Source of the DNA: Promethearchaeia archaeon
GTDB taxonomy: Archaea > Asgardarchaeota > Lokiarchaeia > Sigyniarchaeales > SOKP01
Assembly (NCBI GenBank): GCA_046497275.1
Contig: JAWOFX010000135.1
Coordinates: 1-29,630 of the forward strand
Direction: 5' to 3'
DNA: 29,630 bases
Made by a program: the position numbers and the translations under genes. The notes beneath the pieces were generated by a model. The model saw only the letters and a program-made list of their open reading frames with translations, was not told the DNA's origin and made no database searches. Shown piece by piece: positions 13,763 through 19,222 of this stretch (position 1 is its first letter; the number at the start of each line of letters is the position of its first letter).

Positions 13763-15238
13763 TTATTTGCCTACTTCTTGCTTAATAAAGAAATCAACAG
13801 CAGTTTTTAAATCTTTAATCGTGAGATCTCTCTTTAGGGAGGATTTCATCTCTTCTATATATTTAGAACACAATTTTAAACTCAATTGGCTACCTCGACT
13901 TTTTATCATCTCTTGTAATAATTTCGGAATATCGTCAACTTCATTAATATTTTTATAGTTATCTTCAGGATAAGACTTCTCAACTATTTTTTCTTCCTCA
14001 ATTTGAAACTCTTTATACTTGTCTAAATCTATTTTCACATCATCAGGTTCTAAAGAATCAGTAAAAAATACATCGTCTATCAATCCCTCATTCTTGAAAT
14101 CCTTTTCTTCTTTTGAGCCTTTATGGTTTTTAGGAAGTTCTTTGACCTTTATTTGCTTAGTAAATTCTATCTTCTTAGGAGGAGCAAATTTCTTTTTTCT
14201 CTCGATTTTACGTCTAATTTCTGCTTTTTCTCGTATTTTTTTTTCTATTTTATTTGCTTTATATTGAAATTCCTTAAGATAAGAAAAATGTTGATAAGAA
14301 TTCGCAATATTAATTAATTCTTTATATTTTGATAATGATTTGCCTAAGTTTTTCTCTTCTTCAAATTTTACAGCTTCTTTGATTAAATCTTCAAAATTTT
14401 CCGGTAATTTTTTCTTAATATTAAACGTATCACTAATTCTTGATATCAGTTTCTGTTTGATTTCTGGATCTTTTAATGATAGTTTTTCAATATTATCAAT
14501 TTCTAATTCATTTTCCAATTTTTTAATTTCTTCATCACTAACTAAATCAACTTTATTAGCTATCACAAGAAATTTTGATAATTGGCTCTCCTTTCTTTTA
14601 AGTGTCAAAAAATAATCGAGAACTTTCAGATTATAGTTTGAAATATCGAAAATAAAAATAACTAAATCAGAACCACTAATGAATTTGGACCATAATAATG
14701 AAAAATTATCTTTCAATTGGAAATCCCATACTTCAAATTTTAAAGCATATAGGTTTAAGAGAGAGGATTTCGCAAAATTCATTATCTCTCGTTCCTTTTC
14801 CCTATTTGTTAAGAGTTCATATAAAGTAGTCTTTCCGGCATTGGTTGGTCCTATTAAAGTGATTTTTGAATGTAATTCGGTTTGAAGACTGTATAAATAA
14901 TCGATATATTCTTCCCGTTTAGAATCCGATTTTTTTAGTTCTTCAATACTAGGAAATAAATCTTTAAATTTTTTAATTGCTTTCTCGAGAATCTCTTCCA
15001 TATACTTTATAGAATCGACAAGATCTGCGATCATTAAAAAATAAATATCCCCATATCCTCCATGGAAAACTTGGAGTTCGGAAAAAGAACGGTTTAGAAT
15101 TTTTCCAGATGTCGGAGAATTAATCTGAACTTCCAAAGCCTCAATGACATTCTTTAAATCATCCTCTCTTAATGCCATTGCAAAAGTATGGGTGAAAAAA
15201 CGTTCTCCCCGATAAAGGATATGAATTTGTCGAAGCAT
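13763..15238 (-). CDS. multidomain protein: longin-like N-terminus, divergent small GTPase domain, helical/charged C-terminus
   Basis: G1 GPTNAGKT and G4 NKVD are intact, and G3 reads WDFQL. The N-terminal ~120 aa has longin-like strand/helix patterning. Confidence 0.75.
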   Translation of the reverse strand: MLRQIHILYRGERFFTHTFAMALREDDLKNVIEALEVQINSPTSGKILNRSFSELQVFHGGYGDIYFLMIADLVDSIKYMEEILEKAIKKFKDLFPSIEELKKSDSKREEYIDYLYSLQTELHSKITLIGPTNAGKTTLYELLTNREKEREIMNFAKSSLLNLYALKFEVWDFQLKDNFSLLWSKFISGSDLVIFIFDISNYNLKVLDYFLTLKRKESQLSKFLVIANKVDLVSDEEIKKLENELEIDNIEKLSLKDPEIKQKLISRISDTFNIKKKLPENFEDLIKEAVKFEEEKNLGKSLSKYKELINIANSYQHFSYLKEFQYKANKIEKKIREKAEIRRKIERKKKFAPPKKIEFTKQIKVKELPKNHKGSKEEKDFKNEGLIDDVFFTDSLEPDDVKIDLDKYKEFQIEEEKIVEKSYPEDNYKNINEVDDIPKLLQEMIKSRGSQLSLKLCSKYIEEMKSSLKRDLTIKDLKTAVDFFIKQEVGK

Positions 15239-15498
15239 ATTTATAATAATATTCTCTTCAATATTACTTAAATTTATTATAAATATAATGATTTTAATAA
15301 TTTTTTGTATATTTCTAAAAAGTAGATGATTAAATTCATTAGTTAATGTTTAAGTACCTATTCTAATCAAGATAATTCAAATAGGAAGAACTATAGAATA
15401 TTTAATATGGAGCAATAAGAAAAATAAAAATTAAGAATAAAAATTATTTCATTTGAAAAATATATAATATTAATTACTTAAAATTTTTAAGTTTCCTA

Positions 15499-16461
15499 AT
15501 GCCGTTAGAAGAAAAACATATCTTAACATTCATTGATAATCCTGTAAATGAACGATTTAATTCAGAATTGCTCGATTTATTAATAAATAGAATCAATGAT
15601 CTTTGCTTTAAAGAATGCCAAGTTGACAGAATTGCGTGCACGCTTACTCCTATGTGCAGTAGACGATTCCTTTTAAAACTCAAGATAAAAAACGGATTAG
15701 GAATGGAAGATTTACCAAAGTTTTGTTATAGTGTCCATAAAGGCATTGTAGAACGGGATTTTAGAGGAAAAACAGTAGTATATAAACCATCGGACAGCTA
15801 TTTATATCTTATAGACTTTCTTGACATATTTTTTCACGGAGATTATCGAAAATTAAATAAATTTATTTCCTTTAAAAATTGGGATGAAGCATTTCGAATG
15901 TTTGATGAAAGAATTAAAAATGGAGAGAAATTTCGTTATCACAAAACCGATAACTATCTAATATTTAAATTTGAAGATCGCTTACATGTAGTATTTTTAG
16001 AAGAAGGATATGCCCTCACAAATGCAAACAGAGAAAATATTTCCGATTTAGAGTTGATAAAAGGAATTTTGGAATTGTATTCTAAGATATCATTTCCAGA
16101 TTTCAATATAAATTTAGTTTCAAATGAATATGTTGAGACTAAATTAAAAATTCCTTTCGACATCATCTCAAATGTCACTGAGGAGATCTCTCAGGTAGGA
16201 AATGAACATAAAGAGAGCCCCGATTACTATTTCTGGAATACTTTTCCAGAGGACTTATTTAGATTATCAGAATTCTGTGAAAAAATCAATTTAGATATGA
16301 ATAGAATGAAAGATTTAGTATTAATAATGCAGATAGATACGGAAACCAAAAATTATAGCGATGATAGTAAACTAAATATTCCCTTAAGATATCGAGATTT
16401 ACAAAAAATTATTGATTTCATAGATTTTATTTATAATAAATTTTATGTGATTTGGGTGTAA
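15499..16461 (+). CDS. hypothetical protein with an N-terminal Cys cluster
   Basis: 320-aa ORF containing CFKECQVDRIACTLTPMC...FCYSVH. Confidence 0.75.
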   Translation: MPLEEKHILTFIDNPVNERFNSELLDLLINRINDLCFKECQVDRIACTLTPMCSRRFLLKLKIKNGLGMEDLPKFCYSVHKGIVERDFRGKTVVYKPSDSYLYLIDFLDIFFHGDYRKLNKFISFKNWDEAFRMFDERIKNGEKFRYHKTDNYLIFKFEDRLHVVFLEEGYALTNANRENISDLELIKGILELYSKISFPDFNINLVSNEYVETKLKIPFDIISNVTEEISQVGNEHKESPDYYFWNTFPEDLFRLSEFCEKINLDMNRMKDLVLIMQIDTETKNYSDDSKLNIPLRYRDLQKIIDFIDFIYNKFYVIWV

Positions 16462-16483
16462 AAAAGAAGAGGAAAAAAGAAAA

Positions 16484-17482: not shown

Positions 17483-17507
17483 ATAAAGATAATGCACTTT
17501 AATTAGA

Positions 17508-18524
17508 TTAAATAGGTTTTTCTTTTAATCTATTTCTAATTTTCTTGACTTCTGCTATCATTATACTTTCGGGTTCAAGACTCTTTACTAAATTATCTGC
17601 AAATTTATATGCTTCTTCAATAAAACCAAGATCTTCTAATAGCTCTATAATTTGTATCTTATAATCAACACTTTCAAATCTTTCGAAATAAATTACTAAT
17701 ATTTCTTTAATTAAATTAAAAATTGAAACAGATTCAGGAATATTATGAAATTTCTTAACTTTTTTAACAAGCTGTTTAAAGCTATTCATAATATTATACG
17801 ATTCCGAAAGATCGTACTTTTCTATACTATTTAGTATTTCATTAACTGAACTCTCCATTTTATCGAGTCTTCCGATTTTTATACTCACTTGTAATGTATC
17901 AATTAAAGCTAATTCGTAGAGAAATTTGCTCTCTATCATAGGAATGACCTTTTCGTATATCCAATCAAGTAATTTCGGTTGATTATACTTTTTAATAACA
18001 TCGATCAGAAATCTTATAACTGAATAAAATAATTTGGCATTTTCTGTCTTAGTTGAGGTTAAAAATGAGACTAATGCATATTTTACTCTTCCTATAGCAT
18101 CATCAAAATTTTCTGGACCTTCAGCAAATTTATAAAAAGCAGATTCCAAAATAGTTTGTATCTTATCTTTATTAGAAAAATCATAGAGAAAATATTTTGA
18201 CCATTTTGGTTCGAATTCATCGGATTTTTTCTCTTTTAAGGTTGTTTTTTGTCCAGGTTTGGAAATTTTTTTTATACGGTCCTCTTTCTTTACATTATTC
18301 GAATATTTCTCGGCATCTTCTTTAGATATAAATTTTAAAATAATCTTGTCTTTTTTCTGTGGGACAATAAACTTGAAAAATACCTCCTCATCTGGATTAA
18401 ATAATTCTTCTCTTAATTCTTTTGGAAATGTAATCCCAGTTTTATTTTTTTTTATAACAGTTTCATAATAATTATCAGTTTCAGTTTGCTTTTCTTCTTC
18501 CATAAATTTAAAATAGAAAATCAA
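17508..18524 (-). CDS. hypothetical protein: AbrB/MazE-like N-terminus plus helical C-terminus
   Basis: TVIKKNKTGITFPKELREEL...VFFKF...KIILK resembles the AbrB swapped-hairpin consensus. Confidence 0.6.
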   Translation of the reverse strand: MIFYFKFMEEEKQTETDNYYETVIKKNKTGITFPKELREELFNPDEEVFFKFIVPQKKDKIILKFISKEDAEKYSNNVKKEDRIKKISKPGQKTTLKEKKSDEFEPKWSKYFLYDFSNKDKIQTILESAFYKFAEGPENFDDAIGRVKYALVSFLTSTKTENAKLFYSVIRFLIDVIKKYNQPKLLDWIYEKVIPMIESKFLYELALIDTLQVSIKIGRLDKMESSVNEILNSIEKYDLSESYNIMNSFKQLVKKVKKFHNIPESVSIFNLIKEILVIYFERFESVDYKIQIIELLEDLGFIEEAYKFADNLVKSLEPESIMIAEVKKIRNRLKEKPI

Positions 18525-18622
18525 GTTTTTATTACTTTGCTTAATTTATAAGAAAAGGTTTTGTAAAATAAGTGTGATATTAGCAATTGAGATATTTGAT
18601 ATACAAGAAATAAAATTTATGC

Positions 18623-19222
18623 CTACCCTGTCAAATTTACTAATTCAGCGCCACGTACATCGAAATTCTTATCAATAAAGATAAGAACAGCGTGACCTGC
18701 GTGATTATATACAATGGGAACTGGAAAATCTTCCGAATTTTCTATGAAAGATCTCTTCACATATACATGTAATACTTTTTTACAAACACGACAATAAACT
18801 GAAATCTTTTTTACAAGATCTAATTCGTTTAAATTGTCCAGTATATTCTCTATAGTATTGTTAAAATCTCTAAAAATATTTGATGATACGTTTTCAAAAG
18901 AGAGAATTACATCGATATCATAAATCTCTTTAAATTTTTTATCCACATATTCTAAAAGTGCTTCCATTAGCTGAAATTGTACATCTGTTTTTGCTCCTAT
19001 AGAATATATAAGATAATCTTTTTTAATATGAGCAATTTTACTATTTCCCTTGAAAATATGAAAGAAAACATCCTCAGCAGCGTTTTCCTTTACAATATTT
19101 AAATCAAGAATGTAACTTTTAAAAGATCTAAAGGGTTTCCATTCTACCAAAGACAACTCATCAGTACTTATATTTATAAAGTTGAGTTTTTCCTTAATAT
19201 TATCAAAATTTGTCTTAAGCAT
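18623..19222 (-). CDS. longin-like domain protein with a C-terminal CxxC/HxxH module
   Basis: LIYSIGAK...QLMEALLEYVDKKFKEIY...IFRDFNNTIENIL fits the longin C-terminal strand/helices, followed by CRVC and HAGH. Confidence 0.55.
   Translation of the reverse strand: MLKTNFDNIKEKLNFINISTDELSLVEWKPFRSFKSYILDLNIVKENAAEDVFFHIFKGNSKIAHIKKDYLIYSIGAKTDVQFQLMEALLEYVDKKFKEIYDIDVILSFENVSSNIFRDFNNTIENILDNLNELDLVKKISVYCRVCKKVLHVYVKRSFIENSEDFPVPIVYNHAGHAVLIFIDKNFDVRGAELVNLTG

What the first reader, a model, noticed from the sequence alone, without database searches (positions are those of the whole stretch)
13763..19222. Five-gene cluster of unannotated eukaryote-like folds, bracketed by two longin-like genes
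Seen: longin-GTPase (-), Cys-cluster protein (+), HEAT + coiled coil (+), AbrB-helical (-) and longin-CxxC (-) lie contiguously between metabolic genes and trmJ, with no recognisable enzyme among them. Known: longin plus HEAT/alpha-solenoid subunits form eukaryotic adaptor (AP/COPI) and GEF complexes, often as longin heterodimers. Inference: they may encode subunits of a single proto-adaptor or GTPase-regulatory complex. Mixed orientation weakens the operon argument.
Basis: inference. Interest (0 to 1): 0.65.

Follow-up and report, generated by a model that had tools for sequence, protein, structure and literature searches.

The report
Lokiarchaeal four-gene module, not an adaptor
In one order of Asgard archaea, four uncharacterised genes travel together around an ancient five-cysteine protein with no recognised family, while the fifth gene is a late add-on, so this is probably an undescribed archaeal protein scaffold and not a forerunner of the eukaryotic vesicle adaptor.

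Summary
All five ORFs are real and the domain calls hold: A is a longin + Arf-like G domain, B has five conserved cysteines, C is short HEAT + coiled coil, D is AbrB + helical, E is longin + CxxC/His. The genome is lokiarchaeial.

The two-longin adaptor/GEF idea fails. E is not found in the closed MK-D1 genome, where A-D are contiguous (DSAG12_02715-02718). Three related species keep only a selected 126-174 aa mini-A without longin or GTPase. C's HEAT part is about 210 aa and generic. A lacks the G3 DxxG motif in 44/44 orthologues.

What holds is a four-gene module of one order. B-C is an unbroken operon with weak predicted binding (0.38 vs control 0.01); A and D stay near in three arrangements, though background synteny is high (62%). 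B is near pan-Asgard (216/301 genomes), has no family or fold match, and outside this order usually precedes a 1,200-aa TrmB-helical rod gene.

The scan has reported this cluster before in other genomes; the B ancestry, mini-A and E results were not in the notes I saw.

The parts
13763..15238 (-). Gene A, 491 aa: longin (1-120), degenerate Arf-like G domain (about 122-275), helical bundle (about 280-345), conserved short motif (about 348-370), variable linker, C-terminal three-helix domain (about 435-491). MK-D1 orthologue WP_162306730.1, listed as LGX in the supplement of Tran et al. 2024.
14129..14194 (-). Conserved K/F/P motif of A (about residues 349-370); one of the two parts kept in the mini-A of three species
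13763..13935 (-). C-terminal three-helix domain of A; unique in this genome, no family match; kept in mini-A
15239..15498 (.). 260-bp divergent intergenic region between A and B-C; an AT-rich 12-mer recurs upstream of B in relatives (10/26 vs 49/1874 background) but is degenerate here
15499..16461 (+). Gene B, 320 aa: near pan-Asgard protein with C36, C40, C47, C53, C76 (probable Zn or Fe-S site, inferred) in a helical N-terminal domain, then a beta-meander and an alpha/beta domain. MK-D1 DSAG12_02717; Odinarchaeum OdinLCB4_005535.
16484..17482 (+). Gene C, 332 aa: about 210-aa HEAT solenoid plus E/K-rich coiled-coil tail; 22 bp behind B; order-specific. MK-D1 DSAG12_02718.
17508..18524 (-). 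Gene D, about 331-338 aa: AbrB/MazE swapped-hairpin domain, Lys-rich linker, helical (TPR-like, weak) domain; order-specific, single copy. MK-D1 DSAG12_02716.
18623..19222 (-). Gene E, 199 aa: longin (10-135) plus a CxxC...H-x2-H domain (137-199; 8 copies in this genome). Adjacent to D only in most of this family; judged a passenger.

Best explanation
A, B, C and D form a functional module specific to one lokiarchaeial order, most likely a soluble, non-catalytic protein scaffold; E is a passenger. Proposed working: B, an ancient metal-site protein, binds the HEAT head of C (weakly predicted), and C's coiled coil gives the pair a rod or dimer arm (inferred). This replaces the long TrmB-helical rod protein that follows B in most other Asgard lineages sampled (neighbourhood shown, function inferred). 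A is a pseudo-GTPase: it probably still binds nucleotide in many species but cannot hydrolyse or switch in the usual way, and it docks on the module through its short motif and C-terminal three-helix domain, carrying the longin-G unit as an optional accessory (inferred from mini-A). D dimerises through AbrB and contributes a helical binding surface or controls the shared promoter (inferred). The cellular job is not shown; a tether or scaffold is the best guess.
For: B-C are adjacent and co-oriented in 68 of 71 genomes with C, the rest being contig breaks or a broken B, and in all four families; gap mostly under 75 bp. Complex prediction B + C(1-215): weak support, score 0.38 (runs 0.38, 0.58, 0.30), best of 3 controls 0.01, runs agree in at least 90% of contacts, partner pLDDT at least 83; the mark was reached by 58/80 solved and 2/110 mismatched pairs, but at 0.60 or under by only 7 of the 80 and by both mismatches. 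A stays beside B-C in three different arrangements and D-A is an operon in four genera, with an 8-bp gap in MK-D1. A orthologues, C and D share one order-restricted, single-copy distribution. G3 DxxG is present in 0/44 A orthologues, the switch I Thr is essentially gone, the P-loop is lost in 4/44, whereas the paralogue in the same genome is canonical. Mini-A in three species has dN/dS about 0.28-0.29. B precedes a TrmB + apolipoprotein-like rod gene in 15/20 loci from 10/14 other Asgard families. No transmembrane segment in any of the five.
Against: Background synteny is high: 34/55 adjacent and 29/90 near-adjacent single-copy pairs of two genomes of another family stay within three genes in this genome, so A-D proximity alone is weak. 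A-D and B-C are 87 kb apart in Ca. Harpocratesius and D is elsewhere in three lineages. The B-C score lies in the range where passes are more often wrong than right unless likely beforehand. An A orthologue was not found in family f4 (63-88% complete). No binding of A or D to anything was tested.
Confidence: 0.45

Rival explanations
1. Only B-C is a true unit; A, D and E are unrelated core genes that share a slowly rearranging chromosomal block.
For: 62% of adjacent single-copy pairs survive between families, including divergent and convergent pairs (11/22). Flanking M32, ferredoxin and trmJ genes also persist within the family. Mixed orientation. Tran et al. (PMC10933270) note that MK-D1 GTPase genes are generally not in operons with their regulators.
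Against: A returns next to B-C in three arrangements and D-A forms a tight operon in four genera; A, C and D have matching distributions.
Confidence: 0.27
2. A DNA-linked or regulatory module: D is an AbrB-type transcription factor for the divergent promoter, and B-C act in nucleoid organisation or gene control, as B's ancestral neighbour is a TrmB-type DNA-binding protein.
For: AbrB/MazE match for D. D faces B across 64 bp in MK-D1. B's usual partner gene has a TrmB wHTH, E about 1e-8 to 1e-11. C has weak hits to Cnd1 and RTP1 HEATs. A 12-mer recurs upstream of B.
Against: D is far from B in several lineages; AbrB folds also act as plain dimerisation units (own knowledge); the HEAT hits are generic; no palindrome was seen.
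Confidence: 0.15
3. A is an active, non-canonical GTPase switch and B, C and D are its regulators or effectors.
For: P-loop intact in 40/44 and NKxD in 35/44 orthologues; longin-GTPase fusions are a known Asgard design (PMC10933270).
Against: DxxG in 0/44; P-loop and G4 both lost in Harpocratesius-like genomes; the whole G domain is deleted in three species that keep the other genes.
Confidence: 0.08
4. The five genes encode a proto-adaptor (AP/COPI-like) or a longin-heterodimer GEF.
For: Two real longin folds, A's being most like AP-2 sigma by profile; a HEAT protein with weak AP-3 hits, E about 1e-3; an Arf-like domain.
Against: E not found in closed MK-D1; A's longin dispensable; C has about 210 aa of HEAT and no Adaptin_N hit; no mu-homology domain; no N-terminal amphipathic helix on A; two longins within five genes is expected by chance in 35% of placements.
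Confidence: 0.05

Closest known systems
Asgard longin-GTPase fusions, LGX architecture (Tran et al. 2024, PMC10933270; MK-D1 WP_162306730.1)
   Same: A is the orthologue of that protein: longin, then Arf/Rag-like G domain, then extra helical part.
   Different: A's subfamily has lost G2 and G3, can lose the whole longin-G unit, and lies in a conserved module that I did not find described.
AP1-5 / COPI F-subcomplex recruited by Arf1
   Same: Sigma-like longin, a HEAT protein and an Arf-like domain in one locus.
   Different: HEAT part about 210 aa rather than about 600, no second trunk, no mu-homology domain, longin fused to a degenerate GTPase and dispensable, no amphipathic helix, B and D have no counterpart.
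AAGAB/Irc6 pseudoGTPase chaperone of AP complexes (PMC12490416)
   Same: A pseudoGTPase associated with a sigma-type longin, plus a C-terminal helical domain used for partner binding: a working analogy for A.
   Different: In A the longin is fused in cis and G1/G4 usually remain; homology and HEAT binding were not tested.
Longin-heterodimer GEF/GAP complexes (Mon1-Ccz1, TRAPPC1/C4, FLCN-FNIP, NPRL2/3)
   Same: E has the longin fold (Z 10-11 to these, below VAMP7 at 14.9).
   Different: The two longins are not co-conserved; no DENN or TRAPPC3 partner in the locus.
AbrB/MazE/MraZ swapped-hairpin regulators
   Same: D's N-terminal domain.
   Different: Fused to a 240-aa helical domain; no toxin gene beside it; DNA binding untested.
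TrmB-family proteins (for B's partner gene outside this order)
   Same: N-terminal TrmB wHTH.
   Different: About 900-1,000 residues of apolipoprotein-like helical repeats follow; no paper found with these terms.

Membership tests
AP/COPI heterotetrameric adaptor | Small subunit with a longin fold | tested here: met
   Fold only: A(1-120) profile hits AP-2 sigma E=0.0027; E model matches longins; both are fused to other domains.
AP/COPI heterotetrameric adaptor | Large adaptin trunk of about 600 aa (Adaptin_N) | tested here: not met
   C has about 210 aa of HEAT, no Adaptin_N hit at E<=1; best natural match Pyrococcus 2db0 E=3e-11 vs AP-3 delta 1e-3.
AP/COPI heterotetrameric adaptor | Medium subunit with a mu-homology domain and a second large subunit | tested here: not met
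   E's longin is followed by a 60-aa CxxC/His domain and A's by a G domain; no such Pfam hit in the five proteins.
AP/COPI heterotetrameric adaptor | Longin and HEAT subunits are obligate partners | tested here: not met
   C persists without A's longin (three species) and without E (closed MK-D1).
AP/COPI heterotetrameric adaptor | Direct longin-HEAT interface | not tested
Longin-heterodimer GEF/GAP (Mon1-Ccz1, TRAPP, FLCN, GATOR1) | Two co-conserved longin subunits | tested here: not met
   E not found in MK-D1, unlinked in other families and in genus g8.
Longin-heterodimer GEF/GAP (Mon1-Ccz1, TRAPP, FLCN, GATOR1) | Nucleotide exchange or GAP activity on a small GTPase | not testable with these tools
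   Needs biochemistry.
Asgard LGX longin-GTPase fusion | Longin, small GTPase, extra C-terminal region | tested here: met
   the MK-D1 orthologue is listed as LGX in the paper's supplement.
Catalytically active Ras-superfamily GTPase | G1 P-loop GxxxxGK[ST] | tested here: met
   40/44 orthologues, including this one.
Catalytically active Ras-superfamily GTPase | G2 threonine and G3 DxxG | tested here: not met
   DxxG 0/44; the switch I Thr position is Met in 39/44; the paralogue is canonical.
Catalytically active Ras-superfamily GTPase | G4 NKxD | tested here: met
   35/44, including this one; lost in family f2.
ArfR / eukaryote-related Arf (bioRxiv 10.1101/2024.02.28.582541) | N-terminal amphipathic helix directly before the G domain | tested here: not met
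   A begins with a 120-aa longin domain.
ArfR / eukaryote-related Arf (bioRxiv 10.1101/2024.02.28.582541) | Phylogenetic placement in ArfR rather than ArfL or Rag | not tested
   No reference set at hand; an earlier scan note places it in ArfL, which that paper says is not directly related to eukaryotic Arf.
AbrB/MazE swapped-hairpin proteins | Sequence signature of the swapped hairpin | tested here: met
   PF04014 in 5/25 members of D's family, best E=2.2e-7; the window's own D does not hit alone.
AbrB/MazE swapped-hairpin proteins | Sequence-specific DNA binding | not testable with these tools
   Needs EMSA or ChIP.
Any known fold for B | Significant structural match | tested here: inconclusive
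   Best Z 6.2 (rmsd 3.2 A, 89 residues), C-terminal domain only; the Cys domain was barely tested.

The most novel reading that the evidence does not exclude
B is the conserved core of an undescribed, near pan-Asgard machine: a metal-cluster protein of unrecognised fold that works with a long helical rod. The rod is a 1,200-aa TrmB-headed protein in Odin-, Hel-, Baldr- and other Asgards, and was replaced in this lokiarchaeial order by a HEAT-coiled-coil partner, with a longin-pseudoGTPase and an AbrB solenoid docking on. This would be a new Asgard-specific cytoskeletal, tethering or nucleoid system testable in cultured MK-D1.
Probability: 0.2. Interest if true: 0.75.

Novelty: new variant of a known kind. 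Interest (0 to 1): 0.48.

Why it matters
Partners of Asgard small GTPases and longins are hard to assign because they rarely sit in operons (PMC10933270). Here four genes are contiguous in the cultured P. syntrophicum MK-D1, giving defined pairs to test. The work also removes a tempting proto-adaptor claim, and points to B, a single-copy-like Asgard gene with no family, kept even in the 1.4-Mb Odinarchaeum genome, as the better target. The natural mini-A deletion shows which part of A is under selection.

Tried and rejected
Fold searches for B: no Foldseek hit at E<=0.001, VIA best Z 6.2 on the C-terminal domain, Atlas best TM 0.34; this does not show that the fold is new. Profile searches of B against Pfam, PDB and 1.84 billion representatives returned only a closed family of 122 proteins; the weak members that carry names are all Asgard. 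B was not detected in several Asgard families (f9 0/28, f18 0/11, f31 0/11) with this query. Atlas search for A(1-125): no model or hit. A's C-terminal domain and D's helical domain: no family match. RNA: contigs from salt-lake metatranscriptomes (2 studies) cover parts of A, B, C and D at 99% or more identity but cannot show transcription, strand or co-transcription; E had no cover in four runs, which proves nothing. Literature searches for the locus tags and for the gene combination found nothing. A-E, A-C, A-D and D-B complexes were not predicted (one job only).
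Full report
ORIGIN AND OBSERVATION. The window is contig C183 of a 3.85-Mb, 99% complete genome whose proteins match Promethearchaeota/Lokiarchaeota records. The five ORFs are as described, flanked by a flavodoxin-ferredoxin and an M32 carboxypeptidase on one side and trmJ on the other. I call them A to E from left to right. None has a transmembrane segment (highest 19-residue hydropathy 1.49).

DOMAINS. A's first 120 residues are longin-like: the profile's best PDB hit is AP-2 sigma, E=0.0027, with VAMP7 and AP-3 sigma behind it. 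This is a sequence-level result; A was not folded. An Arf-like G domain follows, then a helical bundle, a short conserved motif, a variable linker and a three-helix domain. E is a longin by structure (pLDDT 91; Z 14.9, rmsd 2.7 A, 119 residues to VAMP7) with a C-terminal CxxC/His domain that occurs 8 times in the genome. C has about 210 residues of HEAT, whose best natural match is a Pyrococcus hypothetical protein (E=3e-11) rather than AP-3 delta (1e-3), and an E/K-rich tail. D's family matches AbrB/MazE. B folds confidently (pLDDT 88) but matches nothing significant.

A IS A DEGENERATE GTPASE. Among 44 orthologues the P-loop is intact in 40 and NKxD in 35, but DxxG is found in none and the switch I threonine is replaced, mostly by Met. 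The paralogue on contig C45 keeps all motifs. The MK-D1 orthologue WP_162306730.1 appears as architecture LGX in the supplement of Tran et al. 2024 (PMC10933270), so this protein type is known. That it cannot hydrolyse GTP is inference from motifs.

SYNTENY. Within the window's family the order A-B-C-D-E is nearly fixed. Across families it is not. P. syntrophicum MK-D1 (G038, identified) has D then A divergent from B then C, with gaps of 8, 64 and 37 bp. One genus has A-B-C co-oriented with D elsewhere. Ca. Harpocratesius has D-A and B-C 87 kb apart. Family f3 has A facing B-C; family f4 has B-C only. B-C were never seen apart: 68 of 71 genomes with C in the 301-genome sample, the others being contig breaks or a broken B. 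As a control I took 800 kb from two closed genomes of another family: 34/55 adjacent and 29/90 near-adjacent single-copy pairs are still within three genes in this genome. So proximity across families is common here, and only the unbroken B-C operon and the repeated re-association of A and D carry weight.

THE TWO-LONGIN BRACKET FAILS. No full-length E homologue is found in the closed MK-D1 genome. In other families and in genus g8, E homologues lie elsewhere, often by leuS, and several genomes of this family have both copies; the cluster copies form one clade, 99/98. E is thus a later duplicate that settled next to D. Independently, three species of genus g5 carry a 126-174 aa mini-A that starts at the normal place and lacks longin, G domain and helical bundle, while B, C, D and E remain. 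No full A was found elsewhere in the two of these genomes that are 98-99% complete. Mini-A is under purifying selection, dN/dS about 0.28-0.29 against 0.13-0.20 for its neighbours. It is one deletion event, not three. With at least 21 longin-like ORFs in the genome, two within five genes arise by chance in 35% of placements.

AGE OF THE PARTS. In 301 Asgard genomes, D and C orthologues were found only in this order, and A's family only in this class. B was found in 216, mostly as one copy, including Odinarchaeum and Helarchaeota. Its five cysteines are kept in 33-36 of 36 sequences. The family is small and closed: 122 representatives at 50% identity. Outside the order, B is directly followed in 15 of 20 loci, from 10 of 14 families, by a gene of about 1,030-1,310 codons (gaps -17 to 112 bp) with a TrmB wHTH and apolipoprotein-like helical repeats (one of the 15 judged by size only). 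Lokiarchaeial genomes keep shorter, unlinked relatives of that gene. B therefore changed its operon partner from one long helical protein to another.

PREDICTED BINDING. B with C(1-215) gave weak support: 0.38 (runs 0.38, 0.58, 0.30), best control 0.01, at least 90% contact agreement, partner pLDDT at least 83. In calibration 58/80 solved and 2/110 mismatched pairs reached the mark, but at 0.60 or under only 7 of the 80 and both mismatches did. With the operon as prior I put B-C binding at about 55-60%.

HOW IT MOST LIKELY WORKS. Shown: gene content, folds of E and B, motif decay and dispensability of A's front end, B-C coupling, E's late arrival. Inferred: B-C form a metal-site plus rod heterodimer; A docks through its motif and three-helix tail and carries a longin-pseudoGTPase as an accessory, loosely like AAGAB, which binds sigma subunits with a pseudoGTPase domain and adaptins with its C-terminal domain (PMC12490416); D adds a dimeric helical subunit or regulates the promoter. 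I give this 0.45, a neutral block around a B-C pair 0.27, a DNA-linked module 0.15, an active switch 0.08 and the proto-adaptor or GEF 0.05.

COMPARISON AND VERDICT. It is not a member of the AP/COPI or longin-GEF families: trunk length, mu domain, obligate pairing and Arf helix were tested and not met. It works at best loosely like them, as a scaffold using the same folds. I found no paper on the module or on B, C or D. This scan has flagged the same cluster in several other genomes, including MK-D1; those notes are not independent evidence. Interest 0.48: the headline claim falls, but an uncharacterised near pan-Asgard protein with two alternative rod partners, and a natural deletion mapping the selected part of A, are concrete and testable in a cultured organism.

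Noticed in passing
L081:7350-11486, L084:6728-11355, L089:2905-7534 and 12 other Asgard loci: B is co-oriented with a gene of about 1,030-1,310 codons: TrmB wHTH, about 900 residues of apolipoprotein-like repeats, conserved C-terminal domain. Conserved across Asgard classes; no paper found.
   Followed up: partly
L029:5099-5479, L158:1916-2317, L164:490-1014: Mini-A: in-frame loss of longin, G domain and helical bundle, ORF kept under purifying selection.
   Followed up: yes
window 1073-2652: A Rab-like GTPase with coiled-coil tail and a coiled-coil gene; in several relatives this pair lies right beyond the M32 gene next to A (L022, L024, L025, L034), and a Rab-like gene follows mini-A in L164.
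   Followed up: no
window 18623-18811 (E C-terminal domain); L164:1955-2599: CxxC...H-x2-H...D-x2-F domain, 8 copies in this genome, stand-alone, tandem or fused in relatives; no Pfam family.
   Followed up: partly
L073, L075, L076, L077, L070: The second E paralogue sits beside leuS and a conserved 250-290 aa gene whose start looks longin-like; that gene may be a better partner candidate for E than A. Not tested.
   Followed up: no
upstream of B in family f1 (e.g. L024, L027, L145, L149): AT-rich 12-mer 40-110 bp upstream of B in 10/26 loci vs 49/1874 upstream regions of this genome; promoter or binding site; kin are not independent.
   Followed up: partly
window 6640-7233: ORF with a ribbon-helix-helix-like start followed by an unassigned domain; by eye only.
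   Followed up: no
window 21209-21859: Conserved 216-aa gene without Pfam hit that follows trmJ in many relatives.
   Followed up: no
L079:3875-5063 (G017), L162:1404-2300 (G131): Gene A is interrupted in two further genomes; may be assembly error or further decay.
   Followed up: no
L171:2376-4292 (G000:C45): Paralogue of A with all canonical G motifs and a different C-terminus; a natural control for biochemistry.
   Followed up: partly
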